This document shows, piece by piece, positions 3,317 through 51,981 of a stretch of 64,000 bases of DNA. Position 1 is the first letter of the stretch. The number at the start of each line of letters is the position of its first letter. A program made the translations under genes and the position numbers. Below the pieces are notes generated by a model. It worked only from the letters and a program-made list of their open reading frames with translations, was not told the origin of the DNA and did not search any database. Source of the DNA: Candidatus Levyibacteriota bacterium (lineage in GTDB: Bacteria; Patescibacteriota; Microgenomatia; Levybacterales; UBA12049); assembly GCA_043807135.1 (NCBI GenBank), contig JAZDGF010000003.1, positions 72,621 to 136,620 on the forward strand, read 5' to 3'.

Positions 3317-3724
3317 TTAATCTTTAGCAACAATTTTTGTTTTTACTGGTAATTTATGAGAAGCAAGTCTTAGTGCTTCAAAAGCAACTTCCTTTGCAAC
3401 TCCGCTCATTTCAAAAATCATTCTTCCTGGTCTAACTGGAGCAACATATTCATGGATATCTCCCTTTCCTCCACCCATTCTTACTTCTGCCGGTTTTTTA
3501 GTAACTGGTTTGTCTGGAAAAATTCTTATCCAAACCCTTCCTCCTCTTTTGATGTAATGGGTAATTGCTCTCCTAGCCGCTTCAATCTGTCTTGACGTTA
3601 CCCAGCCAGTGGTTTCTGCAATTAGTCCATAATCACCAAAGGAAATATTCGTCCCTCTTTGAGCCACTCCTTTTAAAACACCTCTTTGCTGTTTCCTATA
3701 TTTTGATTTTTTTGGCATTAACAT
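3317..3724 (-). CDS. rplP: 50S ribosomal protein L16
   Basis: The 135-aa protein begins [15 protein letters not shown] and contains RMGGGKG, an L16 signature. Confidence 0.92.
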
Positions 3725-6099: not shown

Positions 6100-6803
6100 T
6101 AATTTATTTTCTCCTTTAAAAAAGTTTTTTCTAAAACTTCAATTGAAGCTTTCATGAAAAGTACTGTTTTACAATTTAAAACTTCATATGTATTTAACAT
6201 TTTTGCGCTTAAAATAGTTACACCTTTTAAATTTCTTCCTGATTTAAATATATTTTCATAACCATTAATTGTATCCGGTGTAACCAATAAAATTTTTCTG
6301 TTTTTCTCTTCAAACTTAAGGTTTTTAATTACATCTGCCATTTTTTTTGTTTTTGTTTCGATTTTTTCAAGGCCTGTCAAAACCATTATTTTTCCTTCTT
6401 GTTTTTTAACTGTAAGCGAAGAAAATAAAGCTGCTTTTTTCATTTTCTTTGGCATTTTCATTGAATAATCTCTTGGTCTTGGTCCAAAAACAACTCCTCC
6501 TCCAACCCAGATTGGAGCAGATTTTGCACCATGTCTTGCTCTTCCTGTTCCCTTTTGTCTCCAAGCCTTATGAGTAGTTGCATTTATTTCTCCTCTGGTT
6601 TTTGTAGAATGGGTTCCTTTTCTTTGATTTGCAAGATATACTCTTACGGCTTGCGCCAAGAGTGTTTTGTTTACTTTTGTATCAAAAATCTCTTTAGGAA
6701 GATTTATTTTTTCTATAATTTTTCCTTTTAGATCATATACGTCCATTTTCAAACCAGTTGTTTTTTTAACTTCTTTTTTAACTATAGTTTTTACTTTAGG
6801 CAT
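6099..6803 (-). CDS. rplD: 50S ribosomal protein L4
   Basis: The 234-aa L4-like protein lies between L3 and L23. Confidence 0.88.
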
Positions 6804-9341: not shown

Positions 9342-9349
9342 ATTTGATC

Positions 9350-9381
9350 AAAAAAAATAACCTCTTTATTCTCTAAAGGTT
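9350..9381 (-). promoter_or_regulatory. Leader stem-loop (7 bp) plus U8 ending 8 nt before the tuf ATG
   Basis: Minus strand reads AACCUUU-agagaauaa-AGAGGUU-a-UUUUUUUU-gaucaaau-AUG. Plus-strand arms lie at 9359-9365 and 9375-9381, with A8 at 9350-9357. Confidence 0.45.
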
Positions 9382-21149: not shown

Positions 21150-21905
21150 TTAAGCTCCTCTTTCTCTTACGGCAATTCTATATTTACAATAGTCACAATC
21201 TTCTCCGGACTTGGGTATTTTATCGTCTCTTAAACAGTTAATTGCATCATTAATAGTTTTTTCAACCCAAGAATCATTTCCTTTATATGGCAAAATCTTA
21301 ATATCAAATTCAAGCTTTGCATCAAAAGCTTTTTTATCGGTAATACCATTACAATATACAAAATATCCTGTGTCTGACACTTTGTAGCCGTTTTTTCTAA
21401 ACAACCATTGATAAATTTCCATCTGTCTTTTATACCCATCTTGCCATTCCTTATCTAAAGTTACCTCTTCTTCTTTAGAAGTTGCTTTGTAATCAACAAT
21501 AATATATTCCCCATTTGGATTTATCCAAACATCATCTATTCCTCCTGTGACAATAACGTTTGAGTGATCAATTCTAGCAGTTATTCCCCTCCTCATAGCA
21601 TCTCTCCACTCATCTATTTTTTCATGATCTAAAGGAATTGCATCAACTCCATATGTTGTCATTAAAGGATGAGCTGTTTTTTTAGCTCTATGAATATCAA
21701 ATTCTTTTTTTAATAACTTATCTACTGCGGAATTTAGAGAAAACGGATAACCTGGAGGCTGACCTACACCAAGACGACGATCTAAGTAAAAGCAACGTGG
21801 ACAACTAATAAATAAATCTATTTTACTTCTGCTTAAGCGAAATAAATCAGTTGTGCTGGGGTTATATAAATATTTTTTCCGGTTAGGATTATAATATTGA
21901 GACAT
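21150..21905 (-). CDS. PD-(D/E)XK-superfamily nuclease with a four-Cys (putative Fe-S) signature, Cas4/RecB-nuclease-domain-like
   Basis: The 251-aa protein has N-terminal CPRC, C-terminal CDYCKY, and a GIDDVW...IIVDYK motif matching D..(D/E)xK. Confidence 0.5.
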   Translation of the reverse strand: MSQYYNPNRKKYLYNPSTTDLFRLSRSKIDLFISCPRCFYLDRRLGVGQPPGYPFSLNSAVDKLLKKEFDIHRAKKTAHPLMTTYGVDAIPLDHEKIDEWRDAMRRGITARIDHSNVIVTGGIDDVWINPNGEYIIVDYKATSKEEEVTLDKEWQDGYKRQMEIYQWLFRKNGYKVSDTGYFVYCNGITDKKAFDAKLEFDIKILPYKGNDSWVEKTINDAINCLRDDKIPKSGEDCDYCKYRIAVRERGA

Positions 21906-35933: not shown

Positions 35934-36923
35934 TTAATTATTTTTTGCTCTGTAAAAGCTTCCTTTTGTTTTTCCTGACTTTTCAACTAAATTTTGATTC
36001 GTAAGTTTTTTTAAATCATAACGAAGCGTTCGTTCAGGTACTTTTAAAAAACGTCTTTTTATACTATCAAATGAAATCGCTGGGTGTTCTTTTATAATAT
36101 TAAGAATTTCTTCTTGTCTTGGAGGCAAGAATATATCTTGCTTTTTAGTTATCTCACTTTCAATTAGTTTTTTAGTTTTTTCAGTTTGCTCATAAAAAGC
36201 TTTAAGCATAAAATAAAGGTATTCTTCAGGTTCTTTTAAACCAATATCTAAATAGTAATAATAATCACTTTTGTGTTCATCTAGGTATTCCTCAAAAGGA
36301 ATATTAACTTCAAAGTTCCAATTTTTTTCTTTAAGAATGGCAAATACTAATAATCTTCCAACTCTTCCATTTCCATCAATAAAAGGATGAATTTTTTCAA
36401 ATATAAAATGCCCCATAAAAGCGCTTATTATTGGAAACTTTTCTTTATTAAAATTTATGTATTTTAAAAGTTTGTTTAATAATAACGGTACTTCTTGTGG
36501 AGGTGGACTTAAATAAATGGCAATTCCCGCGCTATTAAAAATAGCTCCCATTTCTTTTCTAAACTTACCTTGCACCGTGAATAAATCATTCATCACAAGT
36601 GAATGCAGATCTAAAATATCCTTCTCGGAAATTTCTTGCCCTTCTTTAATATTCTTATTTATAAAATCTACTGCTTTTAAGATATTAAAAACCTCAATTT
36701 TTTTTTGCTCTTCGGTTTGCTCCATTCCTATCTCTTCTAAGGTAAGAGGATTTCCCTCAATACGAGCTGAAAAAAGAGAACTCTTTAAAATGCTTACTCT
36801 TTGAATCTTTTCTTTTACGAGGATTGGAATTTTTATTAAAGAAAAATATTGCCTATTTGCTTCAATTTTTGATATAAGTTCTAATATTTCTGGCGTAATC
36901 TTGTATTTTGGATGTATTTGCAC
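35934..36923 (-). CDS. Fic-family protein (class II: N-terminal inhibitory SxxxEGN motif) with a C-terminal winged-helix domain; GTG start
   Basis: The Fic motif HPFIDGNGRVGRLL is present, the inhibitory SARIEGN lies upstream, and the C-terminus has a wHTH. The first in-frame start is GTG at 36923. Confidence 0.85.
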   Translation of the reverse strand: MQIHPKYKITPEILELISKIEANRQYFSLIKIPILVKEKIQRVSILKSSLFSARIEGNPLTLEEIGMEQTEEQKKIEVFNILKAVDFINKNIKEGQEISEKDILDLHSLVMNDLFTVQGKFRKEMGAIFNSAGIAIYLSPPPQEVPLLLNKLLKYINFNKEKFPIISAFMGHFIFEKIHPFIDGNGRVGRLLVFAILKEKNWNFEVNIPFEEYLDEHKSDYYYYLDIGLKEPEEYLYFMLKAFYEQTEKTKKLIESEITKKQDIFLPPRQEEILNIIKEHPAISFDSIKRRFLKVPERTLRYDLKKLTNQNLVEKSGKTKGSFYRAKNN

Positions 36924-36930
36924 GTATTAA

Positions 36931-36990
36931 TATTACCAAATATTGCCGAATATTACCAGATATTACCTAATCTTGCCAAATATTGCCGAA
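36931..36990. repeat. Six tandem 10-bp repeats (consensus TATTRCCNAA), one helical turn each, between the rnj stop and the fic start
   Basis: The units are tattaccaaa / tattgccgaa / tattaccaga / tattacctaa / tcttgccaaa / tattgccgaa, with a degenerate flank tcaaacctca. Confidence 0.85.
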
Positions 36991-38643
36991 TCAAACCTCA
37001 ACCACAACCGGAAGAACCAGAGGATGTTTCTTAAAGTTTTTATAAATATATGCTTCGGAAATCTTTCCTGTTAATCTTCTAAACCTTATCCAATCTTTAA
37101 CTGCTCCCCTTCTTTCCTGAAAAGCTCTTCTTAACTCTTGATTTAAATTTCTGCTAAGAGTTTTTGATTCATCGGATGAAAATCCACGAGCAATAATATT
37201 TGGATTTTCTACAGGCTGACCTGTTGCAGAATCAATTTCTACCATTACAATAACTATTCCTTCTTGAGCAATCTTTTGTCTGTCGCGAAGAACAAATTGT
37301 TCAACTTCTTCCCCTGAAATCTGATCCACATATACGCTCTTGAGCTGAATTTTTCTTCCTAATCTTCCTTTTCCATTTGAAAATATTATTTCTTGTCCAT
37401 CCTCGGGAAGTAAAACATTCTCATCCGCAAGTCCATGAAGCTTAGCAAGATTTTTATATGCAACCATTTGCCTAAAAGTTCCACCAATAGGAACGGCCAT
37501 TTTGGGATTAGTTAAAGCCATCATTAAAAATATTTCCTGCGAGGAACCGTGGCCTGATACATGAAAACTATCACTTACTTCAGAATAAATCGGTCTTGCA
37601 CCGGTTCTTGAAATTGCATCAATTACCGCGTTTACAGAAATTTCATTGCCTGGGATCGGATCTGCTGAAAAAACTACCACGTCCTTTGAACCTAATTTAA
37701 CAAATCTATGTTCGTTATTGGCAACTCTTGTCATGGAAGCATTCTCCTGTCCTTGACTCCCTGCAATCACTAAGCAAAGATCATGATCTTTATAATTTTT
37801 AATCTGCTCAGGAGTTATAACAAAGTTTCTTGGAAAGTTCATGTATCCCAATCTTTCCGCAATATCTTTTGCCCTAATTAAAGACCTTCCTACGAAACAA
37901 ATTTTCCTACCTGTTCTTTGCGCAGCTATTGCTGCTTGGTTTAACCTTGAAATATTTGAACTGTAAGTTGTTAGTATAAATTTTCCTTCACACTTTCGCA
38001 TTTCCATTTCAATATTTTCTTCAAGTTTTCTTTCCGAAGGAGTATGACCTTCTTTCTCAGCACCTAATGCATCTGACATTAAACATAAAATTCCCTCGGA
38101 CGCACACTTTGCTATTTTGGCAAAATTAGTTGTTTTTTTGTCGAAAGGAGTTAAGTCAAATTTATAATCGCTACCGTGGTAAAAATTACCAGCTTGAGTT
38201 TTTATAAAAAGATTTGAGGCATCAGGTATAGAATGAGTTACTCTTATAAAAGAAATTTTAAATCCTCCTAAAGAGATATCTCCACCGTCAAAATCAACCG
38301 GTTTTACTCTATTTAGAGATTTAAATTCTTCAAGCTTCCCATTAGCAAAAGCAGCAGTTAAAGGACTTCCAAAAATAGGGAACAGGGGAAGCTGCGGGAG
38401 AATAAACGGTAAGGCTCCAATATGATCTTCGTGACCATGAGATAAAACCATTCCGACAATCTTTTTCTTAGTTTGCAATAAGTAAGAAATGTCAGGAAGT
38501 AATAAATCTACGCCAAGCACAGTCTCATCTGCAAAACCAATTCCACAGTCAACTATTAATATTTCTGTTGCGGATTCGTAGATATACATGTTCTTTGTTA
38601 CATCTCCTGATCCACCTAATGGTATAAATTTTATTTCATTCAT
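36991..38643 (-). CDS. rnj: Ribonuclease J
   Basis: The 550-aa protein has a metallo-beta-lactamase HGHEDH motif, a beta-CASP domain and a C-terminal domain. Confidence 0.9.
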   Translation of the reverse strand: MNEIKFIPLGGSGDVTKNMYIYESATEILIVDCGIGFADETVLGVDLLLPDISYLLQTKKKIVGMVLSHGHEDHIGALPFILPQLPLFPIFGSPLTAAFANGKLEEFKSLNRVKPVDFDGGDISLGGFKISFIRVTHSIPDASNLFIKTQAGNFYHGSDYKFDLTPFDKKTTNFAKIAKCASEGILCLMSDALGAEKEGHTPSERKLEENIEMEMRKCEGKFILTTYSSNISRLNQAAIAAQRTGRKICFVGRSLIRAKDIAERLGYMNFPRNFVITPEQIKNYKDHDLCLVIAGSQGQENASMTRVANNEHRFVKLGSKDVVVFSADPIPGNEISVNAVIDAISRTGARPIYSEVSDSFHVSGHGSSQEIFLMMALTNPKMAVPIGGTFRQMVAYKNLAKLHGLADENVLLPEDGQEIIFSNGKGRLGRKIQLKSVYVDQISGEEVEQFVLRDRQKIAQEGIVIVMVEIDSATGQPVENPNIIARGFSSDESKTLSRNLNQELRRAFQERRGAVKDWIRFRRLTGKISEAYIYKNFKKHPLVLPVVVEV

Positions 38644-38650
38644 AATTTTC

Positions 38651-39736
38651 TTAGGTTGATAAAAATTGCTTTAAGTTTTCTTTGGTAACATGAACTTGAG
38701 TATTTTGTTGCACTTTTCCCTCAATAATAAGCCTTGCAGTTTTCCTGCAAATTCCCTCAATTGTTCTCTCTAAGCTTCTAATCCCAGAGTCAAAACCCAA
38801 TGGCCTTATAATGTTTGGCCATAAAGGATCATCGACTATTAGCTGATTATCAGAAAGTCCTGAGGCTTTTCTAATTTTTGGAAAAAGATAAATTTTAGCA
38901 ATAACAGTTTTTTCTTCGTCCGTATAAGACGGCATTTGAATTATCTCAAGCCTATCTAGCACTGCAGTTGAAATATTGGTTGTATTATTTGCAGTTGTAA
39001 CAAATAAAGAGTGAGATAAATCAAACGGATAATCAATATAATGATCTGTAAATGCCTTATTTTGCTCAGGATCTAAAAGTTCAACTAAAACTCCCATAAT
39101 ATCAGCTCTTGCCGCTTCGGTAACTCTATCAAGCTCATCAAGTAAAATTACCGAATTTTTACTTTGCGCGTGTACTATTTTTTTAACAATTGCGCCCGGT
39201 TCTGCTTCTGCAAGTGCACGAGACTGCCCACGCAGAATTTTTGCATCTCCCATTCCTCCGAAAGGAATTCTCTCAAATTTTCTTCCCAATGCTTCTGCAA
39301 TTGAATAAGCAAGTGTTGTTTTACCGGTTCCGACAAGACCAATCAAACAAAGAATTGGAGCACGAATTGTCATGTCTTGCTCTTGATTTGTTCTTAAATT
39401 AAGCATAATTGAGGAAAGATATTCAAGAATTCTGTTTTTAACACTTTCCAAACCGTAATGATTTTTGTCTAAAATTTGTTTTGCCGCATTAATATCTAAA
39501 AAATCCTTTGTTTCTTTTGCAAAGGGAAGATCACATATCCAATCAATATATTTTGCCGTACTTTCAAAATTAATAAAAGTTGCTCCTCCTGCTTTAAGCC
39601 CAGCTCTTAACATGGAAAGCATTCCATTAACTTTTTCTAAAAGTTCCGGAGGTAAATTTGCAGCTTTTACTTTTTCTTCAAGTTTTTTCACTTGAATATC
39701 AAGAGAGCCAGTTTGGTCCATATATTTATAATACAA
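38651..39736 (-). CDS. Lon-like AAA+ ATPase module only (no LON N-domain, no S16 peptidase domain)
   Basis: The 361-aa protein aligns to the Lon ATPase region: YIDWICDLPF, HYGLESVKNRILEYL, Walker A GLVGTGKTT, Walker B ILLDELD and TTANN. It ends exactly at the ATPase/protease boundary and is flanked by intact genes. Confidence 0.6.
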   Translation of the reverse strand: MYYKYMDQTGSLDIQVKKLEEKVKAANLPPELLEKVNGMLSMLRAGLKAGGATFINFESTAKYIDWICDLPFAKETKDFLDINAAKQILDKNHYGLESVKNRILEYLSSIMLNLRTNQEQDMTIRAPILCLIGLVGTGKTTLAYSIAEALGRKFERIPFGGMGDAKILRGQSRALAEAEPGAIVKKIVHAQSKNSVILLDELDRVTEAARADIMGVLVELLDPEQNKAFTDHYIDYPFDLSHSLFVTTANNTTNISTAVLDRLEIIQMPSYTDEEKTVIAKIYLFPKIRKASGLSDNQLIVDDPLWPNIIRPLGFDSGIRSLERTIEGICRKTARLIIEGKVQQNTQVHVTKENLKQFLST

Positions 39737-50037: not shown

Positions 50038-51981
50038 TTAATTTATAGGTGTACATTTGAGGCTACAAATTTGAATACCATCTTCTCTTGAAGTACATGC
50101 AGGGTCAAAAACACAATTAGCCGTTTTATAAATGGTTGTAGTTGTGGTAGAAGTTCCTAAACCTCCTTCTCCAGGCAAACTACAATCAGAAGGACAATTT
50201 ACATTTGTTTCTCCTAATTCACAGGTTCCATTTCCACAAGTATTATTTCCTCCAGGCAAACTACAATCAGAAGGACAATTTACATTTGTTTCTCCTAATT
50301 CACAGGTTCCATTTCCACAAGTATTATCTCCTCCTCCGGGGTTTGCTCCTGGCGGAATTATAAAGCTAAAAATAAGACCAAAATTACTAGTATTAATATT
50401 AATAGGGTTCGAAGGGAAAACAATTGTCCCTGCTTTTGCGGAAATATTATAGCTACCAATAGGAAGAGAAGTAAATGCGTATTCACCGTTACTATTAGTT
50501 GTGATAGTGCCACTGTATGGACCCGACAAAGTAATTGTTGCTCCTTGAATACCTTGTTCTCCTGGATCAAAAGTATTATTACTGTTTTGATCTATAAAAA
50601 CTGCACCCGAAATAAAGGGCCTATTTTGAAGAGAAGGATCGCCTCCTCCTGGATTAGTCCCTCCCGTTGTAGTTGTTGTTGTCTGTGTTGTTGTTCCTCC
50701 ACAATATTTTGGCAAAACATTAGTTCTAATCCAATATTTTTCTACAGAGTCAAATATTGGTTGTGTTGCACAACCTACTGCACTCATCATAGTGTTTGCA
50801 TTACCACTTGCTACTAGGTTTGGGTTAGCAGGTTTTGGACAAGTTAATGGAGAAGAAGCATAATTATTTATATTACTACAGCCCTTGTATGATCCTTGCC
50901 CGCCTGCTGTTTGCCAAAAACTTTCTCCGCTTGGATTATTCGTACAATTACTTTTTATTCCCCCTTGTATTTGTCCATAGCCTAAGTTTGAAGAGACATA
51001 GCGATCATACAAGAGGCCTATTGCATGACCTAAAAATTCATGCGCTGCAACTACTCTGGTGGTATTAGTAATATTTCCTCCATTATTTGGGAAAACTGCA
51101 ACGTTTCCCCCAATTCCGCTTGTTACTCCAAGCGCACCCCCTGAAATTACCATATCAACTAAAACTATTACTTTTGAAGCATCCGGATAAGTAGATTTTG
51201 CTATTTGCATAATTCTAGTGCTACCCACACAATTAAGGCTTGCTTTACACCCTAAAGATTCTGAATTGTCAACTACTCTAAAATCAAAAATGCTTTGTGT
51301 GTTGTACGGATCAACTGAAAGATAAATTTGCTTAAAAGCATCTACATCTTGATGAAACTTATTAAAATCCGTATACCCATCACTTACAAATGCAACAACT
51401 AAAGGACTACATCCTTGTGTCTGGGCATGGGCTTTGGGTAAATTAAAAAAATTTAGAGAATTTTTTTTTACAGGGAGCTCAATTTTCAAGATATTCTCAC
51501 TATTCTCTTTAATAAGAATCTTTGTTCCTTTGTCTAAGTATGGAACATAAATAACCGTATCTAATTTATCAGGAATTTCAGGCTGAGAACTTCCCGAAGC
51601 AGGAGCATTTATAGACATATCATATAAAGGATCTGTTGTAATGTTTATTTTTGTTCTATAAAGCACTTCATCACCTGAAGAATACATCACTAACTCGTAT
51701 GGCGAAAAATCTGCACTTCTATTATCTTGTGATATTTTTTTATCAATAAGGGTTACTTCTTTTAAAACAAGCTCTCTTTTGTCCGTATTAAAAGTAAGTA
51801 TTACCTCCCATGTCTTATAATTTGGTTTTTGCTCTGTAGTTACTGTCTTTTTAGACATAAATAAAGCGATTGGAATTGAGAATAAAACAATTAGAATAAT
51901 TACAACAAAAATGATTTTTTTTGGAATTGATATCTTTTGAAAAAATGAATTAATTTTACTTAAAAATCCCTCGTTATTCAT
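50038..51981 (-). CDS. Secreted multidomain protein with an N-terminal anchor, an HEFLGH (HExxxH) zincin-like segment, a Cna-B/SdrD-B-type fold and two Cys-rich 27-aa repeats
   Basis: The 647-aa protein contains AAHEFLGHAIGLLYDRY, then SGAVFIDQNSNNTFDPGEQGIQGATITLSGPYSGTITTNSNGEYAF, then two copies of NTCGNGTCELGETNVNCPSDCSLPG. Confidence 0.55.
   Translation of the reverse strand: MNNEGFLSKINSFFQKISIPKKIIFVVIILIVLFSIPIALFMSKKTVTTEQKPNYKTWEVILTFNTDKRELVLKEVTLIDKKISQDNRSADFSPYELVMYSSGDEVLYRTKINITTDPLYDMSINAPASGSSQPEIPDKLDTVIYVPYLDKGTKILIKENSENILKIELPVKKNSLNFFNLPKAHAQTQGCSPLVVAFVSDGYTDFNKFHQDVDAFKQIYLSVDPYNTQSIFDFRVVDNSESLGCKASLNCVGSTRIMQIAKSTYPDASKVIVLVDMVISGGALGVTSGIGGNVAVFPNNGGNITNTTRVVAAHEFLGHAIGLLYDRYVSSNLGYGQIQGGIKSNCTNNPSGESFWQTAGGQGSYKGCSNINNYASSPLTCPKPANPNLVASGNANTMMSAVGCATQPIFDSVEKYWIRTNVLPKYCGGTTTQTTTTTTGGTNPGGGDPSLQNRPFISGAVFIDQNSNNTFDPGEQGIQGATITLSGPYSGTITTNSNGEYAFTSLPIGSYNISAKAGTIVFPSNPININTSNFGLIFSFIIPPGANPGGGDNTCGNGTCELGETNVNCPSDCSLPGGNNTCGNGTCELGETNVNCPSDCSLPGEGGLGTSTTTTTIYKTANCVFDPACTSREDGIQICSLKCTPIN
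50171..50332. repeat. Near-perfect 81-bp tandem direct repeat, two copies, inside the secreted-protein gene
   Basis: ccaggcaaactacaatcagaaggacaatttacatttgtttctcctaattcacaggttccatttccacaagtattat occurs twice with period 81. It is also visible as a repeated peptide in the opposite-strand ORF 50132-50452. Confidence 0.85.

What the first reader, a model, noticed from the sequence alone, without database searches (positions are those of the whole stretch)
36925..36990. Array of six 10-bp tandem repeats (TATTRCCNAA) filling the rnj-fic intergenic region, immediately before a GTG-start Fic gene
The period is exactly 10 bp, so every copy lies on the same face of the helix. The array fills the whole 67-bp gap up to the Fic initiation codon. 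Read on the Fic-coding strand, each unit junction forms a -10-like TAATAT. This looks like an iteron or cooperative operator array, possibly bound by the Fic protein's own C-terminal wHTH, or a phased set of promoter elements. It is too short and has no spacers, so it is not CRISPR.
Basis: seen in the sequence. Interest (0 to 1): 0.6.

Follow-up and report, generated by a model that had tools for sequence, protein, structure and literature searches.

The report
Conserved repeat operator before Fic gene
Six head-to-tail 10-bp repeats just upstream of a Fic (AMP-transferase) gene in a candidate-phyla-radiation bacterium are conserved in front of that gene's relatives, and most likely form the gene's promoter plus the docking sites through which the Fic protein's own DNA-binding tail controls its expression.

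Summary
Window 36930-36989 holds six exactly phased 10-bp units, NNGGYAAKAT on the fic coding (minus) strand. A degenerate seventh unit overlaps the rnj stop codon. The array ends 6 nt before the GTG of a class II Fic protein with a C-terminal winged helix (wHTH).

It is not simple AT-rich sequence. The two-unit motif occurs nowhere else in the 64 kb. The same array (3-8 units) precedes 36 non-redundant Fic orthologues (44-77% identical) in other candidate-phyla-radiation lineages, whatever the upstream gene. It is as conserved as codon positions 1+2, while third positions are saturated.

A sister Fic clade with K/H instead of R298/R301 in the recognition helix carries TCTAATAT arrays instead (7 of 7). 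A stand-alone wHTH-only gene keeps the array.

The last unit is almost always TGGTAAKAT, an extended -10, usually 6 nt from the start codon, and many genes in this window are leaderless.

Best reading (0.7): a self-operator fused to a leaderless promoter, bound head-to-tail by Fic's own wHTH for negative autoregulation, as shown experimentally for CccR and suggested for SoFic. Those relatives use inverted or unmapped sites, so this is a new variant of a known kind. No binding or transcript data exist.

The parts
36930..36989 (-). Array of six phased 10-bp direct repeats, NNGGYAAKAT on the fic coding strand. These are the proposed operator sites.
   Evidence: The array is conserved upstream of orthologues.
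36990..36999 (-). Degenerate seventh unit, GAGGTTTGAT, in phase with the array. It contains the rnj stop codon TGA (36991-36993).
   Evidence: 2 mismatches to the core.
36930..36939 (-). Last unit, TTGGTAATAT. It reads as TGn plus TAATAT, an inferred extended -10 element of the fic promoter.
   Evidence: In 36 orthologue arrays the last unit has T at position 2 in 33 of 36 and T at position 5 in 34 of 36, whereas upstream units mostly have C at position 5. flags TG before a TAATAT.
36950..36959 (-). Unit -2, CTGGTAATAT. Its first six bases are -35-like and lie 18 bp from the last TAATAT. This is a weak inference.
   Evidence: Across orthologues unit -2 has T2 in 31 of 36 and C5 in 28 of 36 (cTGGCA, 4 of 6 matches to TTGACA). 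In this window the match is only 3 of 6.
36924..36929 (-). Six-nucleotide stretch TAATAC between the -10-like hexamer and the start codon. There is no Shine-Dalgarno sequence.
   Evidence: The distance is 6 nt in 21 of 36 orthologue loci. Many other genes in the window have TATAAT 6-7 nt before ATG and no SD.
36921..36923 (-). GTG start codon of fic, and the inferred transcription start of a leaderless mRNA.
   Evidence: The N-terminus aligns with homologues from residue 1. The transcription start itself is not mapped.
35934..36923 (-). The fic gene, encoding a 329-aa class II Fic enzyme with a C-terminal wHTH.
   Evidence: Pfam Fic 5.4e-20, HTH_12 and HTH_DeoR. AF2 model with pLDDT 84. The best Foldseek matches are 4rgl, 7xux (CccR), SoFic and CbFic2.
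36750..36770 (-). Inhibitory-helix motif S52-A-R-I-E-G-N58, the class II signature (S/T)xxxE(G/N).
   Evidence: Invariant in 23 sequences. The motif definition is taken from PMC9755527.
36354..36389 (-). Catalytic Fic motif H179-PFIDGNGRVG-R190.
35937..36128 (-). wHTH domain, residues 266-329. This is the proposed reader of the array.
   Evidence: AF2 secondary structure: H268-278, H285-289, H297-309, strands 313-316 and 323-326. Pfam assignments.
35997..36035 (-). Recognition helix, residues 297-309 (ERTLRYDLKKLTN). R298 and R301 co-vary with the GG of the repeat.

Best explanation
The array is a combined operator and promoter dedicated to the fic gene.

Promoter. The last unit (TGGTAATAT) acts as an extended -10 element. 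Because it ends 6 nt before the start codon, transcription probably begins at the start codon itself and gives a leaderless mRNA.

Operator. All units share the core GGYAAKAT at an exact 10-bp step, so they lie on roughly one face of the helix. They are most likely binding sites for the C-terminal winged-helix domain of the Fic protein encoded immediately downstream. Several copies, or several dimers each covering two units (there is a 20-bp super-period), would sit head-to-tail along the DNA. That assembly would cover the -35, spacer and -10 regions and shut off the protein's own transcription. The result is cooperative negative autoregulation that holds a potentially toxic AMP-transferase at a low, fixed level.

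What is shown: the array, its phasing, its conservation, its exclusive linkage to fic or to the wHTH, and its co-variation with recognition-helix residues.

What is inferred: binding by Fic, the direction of regulation (repression), the stoichiometry, and the transcription start.
For: 1. The array is real and unique in the window.

2. It is linked to fic in relatives. All 7 close orthologues chosen by protein alone (L001-L003, L081-L084) carry the array, although their upstream genes differ: rnj here, Bro-N and restriction-modification genes, a divergent GSDH, a glycosyltransferase. A blind DNA-pattern scan of metagenomes returned 35 loci in which a Fic orthologue starts right after the array, in the same orientation. 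Several further hits were Fic genes cut off or deleted. The remaining hits were mostly perfect satellites.

3. It is under selection. The 46 nt upstream of the start are 78-89% identical to the Levybacteria relatives. Codon positions 1+2 are 82-88% identical and third positions only 44-49%.

4. It co-varies with the wHTH. Every locus whose helix 3 reads xRTLR(Y/W)D has GGYAAKAT units, about 30 loci in all. This includes a group that already has VN/IN before the helix. All 7 loci with xKTLHYD have N(T)TCTAATAT units at the same period and with the same 6-nt distance to ATG. In a second Fic-wHTH subfamily on plasmids of cultured bacteria, different helix-3 sequences again go with different tandem units, and the two RNTLK proteins share TGGGTG.

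5. A 71-aa wHTH-only gene (L172/L184) keeps 4 units plus 6 nt plus ATG even though the Fic domain is gone.

6. Promoter geometry. The last unit has T2 in 33 of 36 and T5 in 34 of 36, and the distance to the start is 6 nt in 21 of 36. Only 14 of 40 proxy genes (long ORFs used as stand-ins for genes) in the window have an SD-like 4-mer, and several have TATAAT 6-7 nt before ATG.

7. Protein architecture. The protein has the class II Fic plus wHTH architecture of CccR, SoFic and CbFic2.

8. Experimental precedent. CccR represses its own promoter through 10-bp boxes near its -35 and -10 (PMC9755527). SoFic binds the first 100 bp upstream of its own start codon.

9. The array read as RNA is less structured than shuffled sequence (z = +1.67). 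This argues for a DNA-level role.
Against: There is no direct evidence of binding, of the transcription start, or of the sign of regulation. The organism is uncultured.

The R/R to K/H co-variation within the candidate phyla radiation separates two clades, so it counts as about one evolutionary event.

L134/L140 have GGTAWWAT units but a helix 3 without arginines (VETVK). A simple 'Arg reads GG' code therefore does not hold across subfamilies.

Characterised relatives are two-fold symmetric dimers, and CccR uses inverted boxes 26 bp apart. Head-to-tail binding to contiguous direct repeats would need a different DNA-binding mode.

Six 38-kDa proteins spaced every 34 Angstrom on one face may clash sterically.

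Each unit also resembles promoter elements (TGn, TAAKAT, TTGGCA). Part of the conservation could therefore reflect RNA polymerase contacts rather than a repressor.

Most of the clade-A loci were found with the motif itself, which is an ascertainment bias. The unbiased sets are only 7 plus 7 loci.

In clade B a TTGAYA at the array edge sits 15 or 25 bp from the -10-like hexamers. This fits neither promoter register well.
Confidence: 0.7

Rival explanations
1. Promoter only. The repeats are stacked sigma-70-type promoter elements: extended -10-like TGGYAAKAT, and -35-like TTGGCA 18 bp upstream of each. They arose by tandem duplication, give RNA polymerase several registers or an UP-like platform, and need no dedicated regulator.
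For: Every unit contains a -10-like hexamer with A at position 2 and T at position 6, and many are preceded by TG. One search finds TTGGCA-18-TAATAT with TG at 36979-36950. Leaderless TGnTATAAT promoters are common in the window.
Against: Other promoters in the window have no such arrays. GG is invariant even in unit -1, which lies in the promoter spacer, and in units -3 to -7, where sigma makes no base contacts. The 5' half of the unit switches from GG to TC together with two wHTH residues, while the -10-like half stays the same. The array is kept by a wHTH-only gene. This model gives no reason why one gene family alone should need the arrangement.
Confidence: 0.1
2. The array is an operator for a different, unlinked DNA-binding protein, such as a global regulator or nucleoid protein of these bacteria, and not for Fic itself.
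For: Binding by Fic is not shown. L002 has a second, partial array in front of a 2-hydroxyacid-dehydrogenase-like gene. This would fit a small regulon controlled in trans.
Against: The only gene always next to the array is fic or its wHTH fragment. In 254 kb of Fic-positive loci only three extra clusters were found, and none in the 64-kb window. The co-variation is with Fic's own helix 3. A second target is equally compatible with Fic being the regulator.
Confidence: 0.1
3. It is a neutral or slippage-prone simple repeat. It could act as a contingency locus whose unit number varies and tunes expression, without sequence-specific recognition.
For: Unit number differs between lineages, from 3 to 8. 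A blind scan also finds many perfect 10-bp satellites with similar cores in unrelated DNA.
Against: The units are imperfect in the spacer and at the Y/K positions but invariant in the core. Unit-by-unit orthology is visible between relatives (TAGGTAATAT CTGGYAATAT TCGGCAAKAT TTGGTAAKAT). Identity equals that of non-synonymous sites, while synonymous sites are saturated. Adding or removing a 10-bp unit would not change promoter spacing.
Confidence: 0.03
4. It is an RNA-level element. The array would be transcribed as a 3' UTR of rnj or a 5' UTR of fic and act through structure or protein binding on the mRNA.
For: The array fills the whole rnj-fic gap, and no terminator was detected between the two genes.
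Against: There is no Rfam match. The RNA folds worse than 195 of 200 shuffles. The upstream gene is not rnj in other genomes. The 6-nt distance to the start codon and the genome-wide leaderless pattern place the transcription start at the start codon.
Confidence: 0.03

Closest known systems
CccR of Yersinia pseudotuberculosis: a class II Fic toxin with a C-terminal HTH that represses its own promoter (PMC9755527; PDB 7xux)
   Same: Same protein architecture: an N-terminal inhibitory helix SARIEG, the Fic motif, and a C-terminal DNA-binding domain. 7xux is the second-best Foldseek match. CccR has 10-bp recognition boxes near the -35 and -10 of its own gene and shows negative autoregulation. Its box, AGATAATCAT, shares a G-TAAT core with GGTAATAT.
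   Different: CccR uses two inverted boxes separated by 26 bp, bound by one symmetric dimer. Here there are 6-7 contiguous direct repeats at an exact 10-bp step that end 6 nt from the start codon. Sequence identity is only about 21%. CccR is a secreted type VI secretion system (T6SS) effector, and no such context is present here.
SoFic (Shewanella oneidensis) and CbFic2 (Coxiella burnetii), both class II Fic-wHTH enzymes
   Same: Same fold. SoFic binds specifically within the 100 bp upstream of its own start codon. In CbFic2, DNA binding through the HTH induces dimerisation and switches the enzyme from AMPylation to deAMPylation.
   Different: No binding motif or repeat has been mapped for SoFic, and CbFic2 was tested only on random DNA. 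The protein here scores 61 bits against the SoFic equivalog model, whose cutoff is 550, so it is not an orthologue.
OmpR/PhoB-type response-regulator sites: tandem 10-11-bp direct repeats read head-to-tail by winged-helix domains (from general knowledge)
   Same: A winged-helix reader, contiguous direct repeats with about one helical turn per unit, pairs of units forming about 20-bp dimer sites, and several adjacent sites filled cooperatively and overlapping or abutting the promoter.
   Different: There is no receiver domain and no phosphorylation. The regulation is self-directed and probably repressive.
Centromere-like or iteron arrays read by small DNA-binding proteins, such as ParR-parC, TubR-tubC and plasmid Rep iterons (from general knowledge)
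   Same: Multiple phased direct repeats that nucleate a cooperative protein filament and often also autoregulate the adjacent gene.
   Different: There is no partition or replication gene. The locus is chromosomal and lies between housekeeping genes. The unit is shorter (10 bp against about 11-22 bp). The array contains the promoter itself.

Membership tests
Class II Fic enzyme with C-terminal wHTH (CccR/SoFic/CbFic2 architecture) | Catalytic motif HxFx(D/E)GNGRxxR | tested here: met
   H179-PFIDGNGRVG-R190. H179, G184-R187 and R190 are invariant in 23 sequences. Pfam Fic 5.4e-20.
Class II Fic enzyme with C-terminal wHTH (CccR/SoFic/CbFic2 architecture) | Inhibitory helix (S/T)xxxE(G/N) located N-terminal to the Fic core in the same chain | tested here: met
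   S52-ARIE56-GN58 is invariant. The motif definition is quoted.
Class II Fic enzyme with C-terminal wHTH (CccR/SoFic/CbFic2 architecture) | [quoted passage not shown] | tested here: met
   Pfam HTH_12 and HTH_DeoR over residues 269-319. The AF2 model shows three helices plus a two-strand wing. Full-length Foldseek matches to 4rgl, 7xux, 3zcn and 8cil.
Class II Fic enzyme with C-terminal wHTH (CccR/SoFic/CbFic2 architecture) | Binds its own promoter and autoregulates | not testable with these tools
   Only comparative support is available: linkage, selection and co-variation.
CccR-type operator | Two inverted 10-bp boxes separated by about 26 bp | tested here: not met
   The units are direct and contiguous. 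The only inverted matches come from the internal AATATT palindrome of the repeats.
Extended -10, leaderless sigma-70-type promoter | TGn plus a -10 hexamer with A2 and T6, ending 6-7 nt before the start codon, with no Shine-Dalgarno sequence | tested here: met
   TTGGTAATAT, then TAATAC, then GTG. Conserved in orthologues. Other genes in the window show the same geometry.
Extended -10, leaderless sigma-70-type promoter | Transcription start at the first base of the start codon | not testable with these tools
   No transcript data are available.
Plasmid or replication iterons | Repeats next to a rep gene or origin (AT-rich unwinding element, DnaA boxes), with units of about 17-22 bp | tested here: not met
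   The neighbours are RNase J, a Lon-like AAA ATPase, PNPase and DUF2207. The units are 10 bp. The array follows fic to different genomic contexts.
CRISPR array | Repeats of about 24-48 bp separated by unique spacers | tested here: not met
   The units are 10 bp and contiguous, with no spacers.
Known structured RNA (Rfam) | Match to a covariance model, or stable folding | tested here: not met
   No meaningful Rfam hit; the best E-value is 2.8, far below the gathering score. Folding z-score is +1.67.

The most novel reading that the evidence does not exclude
Tandem direct-repeat arrays of about 10 bp that abut the start codon are an unreported, widespread hallmark of at least two Fic-wHTH lineages: the candidate-phyla-radiation Fic, and a plasmid-borne group in cyanobacteria and proteobacteria. 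Each array carries a unit sequence matched to its wHTH recognition helix. On these arrays the enzyme would assemble head-to-tail into a DNA-templated oligomer. That oligomer would not only shut off transcription but also set the enzyme's activity state (AMPylation against deAMPylation), as DNA-induced dimerisation does for CbFic2. The operator would then act as an allosteric platform that couples Fic copy number to Fic activity.
Probability: 0.2. Interest if true: 0.8.

Novelty: new variant of a known kind. Interest (0 to 1): 0.55.

Why it matters
Very few cis-regulatory elements are known in candidate-phyla-radiation (CPR) bacteria, which cannot be cultured. Here a gene-specific operator-promoter is conserved across several CPR lineages: Levy-, Curtiss-, Gottesman- and Shapirobacteria, and Parcubacteria-labelled genomes.

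For Fic biology, autoregulation by the wHTH has been shown in one case (CccR) and suggested in another (SoFic). This finding gives a defined DNA site, a predicted recognition rule (R298/R301 with GG; K/H with TC) and natural specificity variants that can be swapped in vitro.

It also implies a DNA-binding mode, head-to-tail on contiguous direct repeats, that differs from the symmetric dimer on distant inverted boxes described for CccR.

Similar arrays sit in front of related genes on plasmids of cultured bacteria: Chroococcidiopsis thermalis PCC 7203, Burkholderia thailandensis, Agrobacterium fabrum and Thioflavicoccus mobilis. The idea is therefore directly testable.

Tried and rejected
- Rfam scan of the region and of the Gottesmanbacteria leader: nothing.
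- RNA structure of the array: less stable than shuffles.
- CRISPR and replication iterons: defining features not met.
- Sigma-54 promoter (GG-N10-GC): the GG-to-GC distance in the array is 10, not 12. Rejected by inspection.
- DnaA boxes: no resemblance.
- An eighth site inside fic (GGCAATAT at 36846-36853): not conserved in 7 orthologues, so treated as chance.
- Element belonging to rnj: rejected, because the upstream gene differs in other genomes.
- The genome-contig scan with the Fic alignment was swamped by distant Fic families and gave only 4 CPR loci.
- An exact look-up of the window protein with the stop codon included failed.
- A crude k-mer periodicity test on 76 distant Fic loci was too insensitive; it missed positive controls L002, L215 and L220. 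It therefore says little about how general arrays are outside the two subfamilies. TRF on the same loci found 10-bp arrays only in L001-L004 and L048.
- Calling the plasmid-borne subfamily 'SoFic-like' was dropped: it scores 64-74 bits against a cutoff of 550.
- Literature searches found no description of direct-repeat arrays upstream of Fic genes or of CPR Fic proteins. The library is incomplete, so this is weak evidence of novelty.

Full report
**Observation.** The region reads, on the minus (fic-coding) strand: GAGGTTTGAT TCGGCAATAT TTGGCAAGAT TAGGTAATAT CTGGTAATAT TCGGCAATAT TTGGTAATAT TAATAC GTG. Six units occupy 36989-36930 at an exact 10-bp step. A degenerate seventh unit (36999-36990) contains the TGA stop of the upstream gene. 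TRF scores the array 70 at period 10 and 91 at period 20, the best short-period array in the 64-kb window. The two-unit core GGYAAKATNNGGYAAKAT gives six hits, all in the array, against 0.46 expected, and 0 of 100 shuffles reach six. The flanking ORFs are RNase J (36991-38643, minus) and a 329-aa Fic protein with a C-terminal winged helix (35934-36923, minus). The minor corrections are that the consensus is better written NNGGYAAKAT and that only three units contain TAATAT.

**Source and protein.** The Fic protein is identical to one annotated from a Candidatus Levyibacteriota metagenome-assembled genome. It has thousands of relatives in candidate-phyla-radiation (CPR) bacteria. It carries the catalytic motif HPFIDGNGRVGR and the N-terminal inhibitory motif SARIEGN, which makes it class II. 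An AlphaFold model (pLDDT 84) shows a three-helix, two-strand winged helix at residues 266-329, with helix 3 at 297-309. Its best structural matches over the full length are 4rgl, CccR (7xux), a Mycobacterium marinum Fic (7cb8), SoFic and Coxiella CbFic2. All of these are class II Fic enzymes with a C-terminal wHTH.

**The array follows the gene.** All seven close orthologues chosen by protein sequence alone carry 4-8 units of the same core directly upstream. They come from Curtissbacteria, two unnamed Patescibacteria, two Levybacteria, a Parcubacteria-labelled contig and Gottesmanbacteria. Their upstream neighbours differ: Bro-N and restriction-modification genes, a divergent GSDH gene, a glycosyltransferase. 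In 35 of them a Fic orthologue (44-77% identical) starts just after the array in the same orientation. Several further hits are Fic genes cut by a contig end, or deleted so that only the array and the first codons remain (L087, L116, L166, L167, L203). Most of the rest are perfect-unit satellites from unrelated, often eukaryote-like, DNA. In 254 kb of Fic-positive loci only three additional clusters were found.

**Selection.** Between the window and its Levybacteria relatives, the 46 nt before the start codon are 78-89% identical. Codon positions 1+2 of the first 60 codons are 82-88% identical and third positions only 44-49%, which is saturated. The array is therefore constrained about as strongly as the non-synonymous sites of a well-conserved protein.

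**Anatomy across 36 non-redundant arrays**. GG at unit positions 3-4, AA at 6-7 and AT at 9-10 are nearly invariant in every unit. The last unit is special, with T at position 2 in 33 of 36 and T at position 5 in 34 of 36, giving TGGTAAKAT. That is the form of an extended -10 element (TGn plus hexamer). Upstream units mostly have C at position 5. Unit -2 prefers cTGGCA, which is -35-like at an 18-bp spacing. Position 2 alternates between T and C/A from unit to unit, producing the 20-bp super-period that TRF also detected. The distance from the last unit to the start codon is 6 nt in 21 of 36 loci and 7-9 nt in 8. It is longer only where extra sequence has been inserted. The two long inserts, in Gottesmanbacteria, then carry a GGAG Shine-Dalgarno sequence.

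**Leaderless context.** Within the window only 14 of 40 proxy genes (long ORFs used as stand-ins for genes) have an SD-like 4-mer. Several have TATAAT, often with TGn, 6-7 nt before ATG. Examples are the genes starting at 21905, 21979, 32738, 35894, 47256 and 60515. Leaderless transcripts therefore look common in this genome. The fic gene has the same geometry. What is unusual is the five or six extra in-phase copies of the element upstream.

**Who reads the repeats?** Three comparative results point to the Fic protein's own wHTH.

- First, co-variation. Helix 3 is xRTLR(Y/W)D in every locus with GGYAAKAT units, including a subgroup that already has VN/IN before the helix. A sister clade (Shapirobacteria and others) has xKTLHYD. 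All seven of its loci, six of them chosen by protein alone, carry arrays of N(T)TCTAATAT at the same period, again with TAATAT plus 6 nt plus ATG. So the 5' half of the unit changes from GG to TC together with R298K and R301H at the start of the recognition helix, while the promoter-like 3' half stays.
- Second, a 71-aa gene that encodes only the wHTH (with the R/R-type helix) still has four units plus 6 nt plus ATG in front of it, and a second array follows it (L172/L184).
- Third, a distantly related Fic-wHTH subfamily also has tandem units of about 10 bp abutting the start codon, with lineage-specific sequences: AAATGGATAT, ATAATTGGCT, TTGGGTGTAA, AATGGATGRA, ATTGGGTG. This subfamily occurs on plasmids of Chroococcidiopsis, Geminocystis, Burkholderia, Agrobacterium, Thioflavicoccus, Tabrizicola and Wolbachia, and in metagenome loci L134/L140. 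The two proteins that share helix RNTLK share the core TGGGTG.

More distant Fic-wHTH genes show no obvious array, and one Lactiplantibacillus plasmid has inverted repeats instead.

**Experimental precedent.** CccR of Yersinia pseudotuberculosis has the same architecture. It represses its own promoter by binding two inverted 10-bp boxes (AGATAATCAT) 26 bp apart, near its -35 and -10. SoFic binds specifically within the 100 bp upstream of its own start codon, and dimerisation is required. In CbFic2, DNA binding through the HTH induces dimerisation and switches the enzyme towards deAMPylation. None of these papers, nor three full-text searches, describes direct-repeat arrays.

**Mechanism proposed.** The array is an operator fused to a leaderless promoter. 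RNA polymerase would use the last unit as an extended -10, perhaps with unit -2 as a weak -35, and start at the GTG. Fic wHTH domains would occupy the units head-to-tail, one per helical turn or as dimers on 20-bp pairs. They would cover positions -7 to about -66 and exclude polymerase, giving cooperative negative autoregulation of a potentially toxic enzyme. Because the upstream units carry the majority form GGC and the -10 unit carries GGT, occupancy may nucleate upstream and spread to the -10 only at higher Fic levels. This last point is inference only. In working principle the arrangement resembles OmpR/PhoB-type tandem winged-helix sites more than the CccR operator.

**Rivals.**

- A pure promoter array does not explain the invariant GG in spacer and far-upstream units, the co-variation, or the wHTH-only case.
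- An unlinked regulator cannot be excluded but is less parsimonious. The second array in L002, in front of a 2-hydroxyacid-dehydrogenase-like gene, fits either Fic or another factor acting in trans.
- A neutral or slippage repeat is contradicted by the selection test.
- An RNA element is contradicted by Rfam, by folding (z = +1.67) and by the varying upstream gene.

**Caveats.** Nothing here shows binding, the transcription start or the sign of regulation. The CPR co-variation is essentially one event between two clades. L134/L140 combine GGTAWWAT units with a helix that lacks arginines, so there is no simple universal code. Most clade-A loci were found with the motif itself. Packing six full-length proteins at 34-Angstrom spacing may be sterically difficult. 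In this window unit -2 is a poor -35 (3 of 6), and an alternative register (TTGGCA-18-TAATAT) would give a 20-nt leader.

**Verdict.** This is a real, strongly conserved, gene-specific cis-element. It is best explained as the self-operator and promoter of a class II Fic-wHTH gene (confidence 0.7). It is a new variant of a known kind of regulation, namely Fic-wHTH autoregulation. What is new is the architecture of contiguous direct repeats that include the -10 of a leaderless promoter, the breadth across CPR lineages, and the apparent match between recognition helix and repeat. Interest is moderate at 0.55. It would be higher if the DNA-templated assembly also controls enzyme activity.

Noticed in passing
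window, e.g. starts at 21905(-), 21979(+), 32738(-), 35894(-), 47256(-), 60515(-): Many genes lack a Shine-Dalgarno sequence and have TATAAT, often TGnTATAAT, 6-7 nt before the start codon. Only 14 of 40 proxy genes have an SD-like 4-mer. Leaderless mRNAs appear common in this Levybacteria genome.
   Followed up: partly
L172 (oriented 306-569 and 579-620) and L184 (276-539 and 549-590): A stand-alone 71-aa gene encodes only the Fic-type wHTH (helix NERTLRYDL). It is preceded by 4 GGYAAKAT units plus 6 nt plus ATG, and a second 4-5-unit array follows right after its stop. No Fic domain is present.
   Followed up: partly
L002 5101-5190: There is a second, partial array in the same genome as a normal fic array: GGCAGGAT TA GGCAATAT TC GGCAAGAT TA GGCAATTC, a near copy of the first four fic units. 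It is followed by 17 nt, TTGGTATCAT, ctag and the ATGATG of a D-2-hydroxyacid-dehydrogenase-like gene. It could be a second target or a duplication remnant.
   Followed up: partly
L087 (oriented 3681-3718), L116 7-34, L203 (oriented 9344-9371): The arrays remain but the Fic gene has been lost. L116 and L203 keep only the first few Fic codons. L087 keeps four GGCAATAT units in a neighbourhood syntenic with L082. Loss of fic seems recurrent.
   Followed up: partly
L084 about 320-409; L191 oriented after 1841: In Gottesmanbacteria a 67-79-nt GC-rich insert lies between the array and the GTG and brings a GGAG Shine-Dalgarno sequence. As RNA it folds stably (-25.2 kcal/mol, z = -2.74) and has no Rfam match. 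It could be a small mobile insert or a structured leader.
   Followed up: partly
L102, L141, L117 (arrays at oriented 3571-3608, 2063-2090, 6367-6394): GGCAAKATTT x3-4, read on the opposite strand, lies immediately upstream of small ParD-like ribbon-helix-helix antitoxin genes (MSTMNISLP...) in GC-rich bacteria. This is an unrelated operator type that happens to share the core.
   Followed up: no
L219-L225 (plasmids NC_019699.1, NZ_AP014825.1, NZ_CP068711.1, NZ_CP033036.1, NC_019941.1, NZ_CP101659.1, NZ_CP034329.1): A second Fic-wHTH subfamily, annotated 'Fic family' or 'DUF977', on plasmids of cultured bacteria has its own tandem direct repeats of about 10 bp abutting the start codon. The unit sequence tracks helix 3. 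These are experimentally tractable counterparts.
   Followed up: partly
L213-L217, L004 (just upstream of the TCTAATAT arrays): Clade-B arrays begin with a conserved TTGAYA (-35-like) in 6 of 7 loci. Its spacing to the successive TAATAT hexamers is 5, 15 or 25 bp, and none of these is a canonical 16-18 bp.
   Followed up: no
window 50169-50334: An 81-bp tandem duplication (2.0 copies, 98% identical, TRF score 325) lies inside the long minus-strand ORF 50038-51981.
   Followed up: no
window 38651-39736 (-): A 361-aa protein has an AAA+ domain and a Lon lid domain but no Lon protease domain. It sits between PNPase and RNase J.
   Followed up: no
L081 1-4840: In one Levybacteria relative the fic gene with its 8-unit array lies among defence-island-like genes: a type I restriction-modification S subunit, Hypoth_Ymh, Bro-N, PDDEXK and GIY-YIG. 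In the window and in other genomes it lies among housekeeping genes.
   Followed up: no
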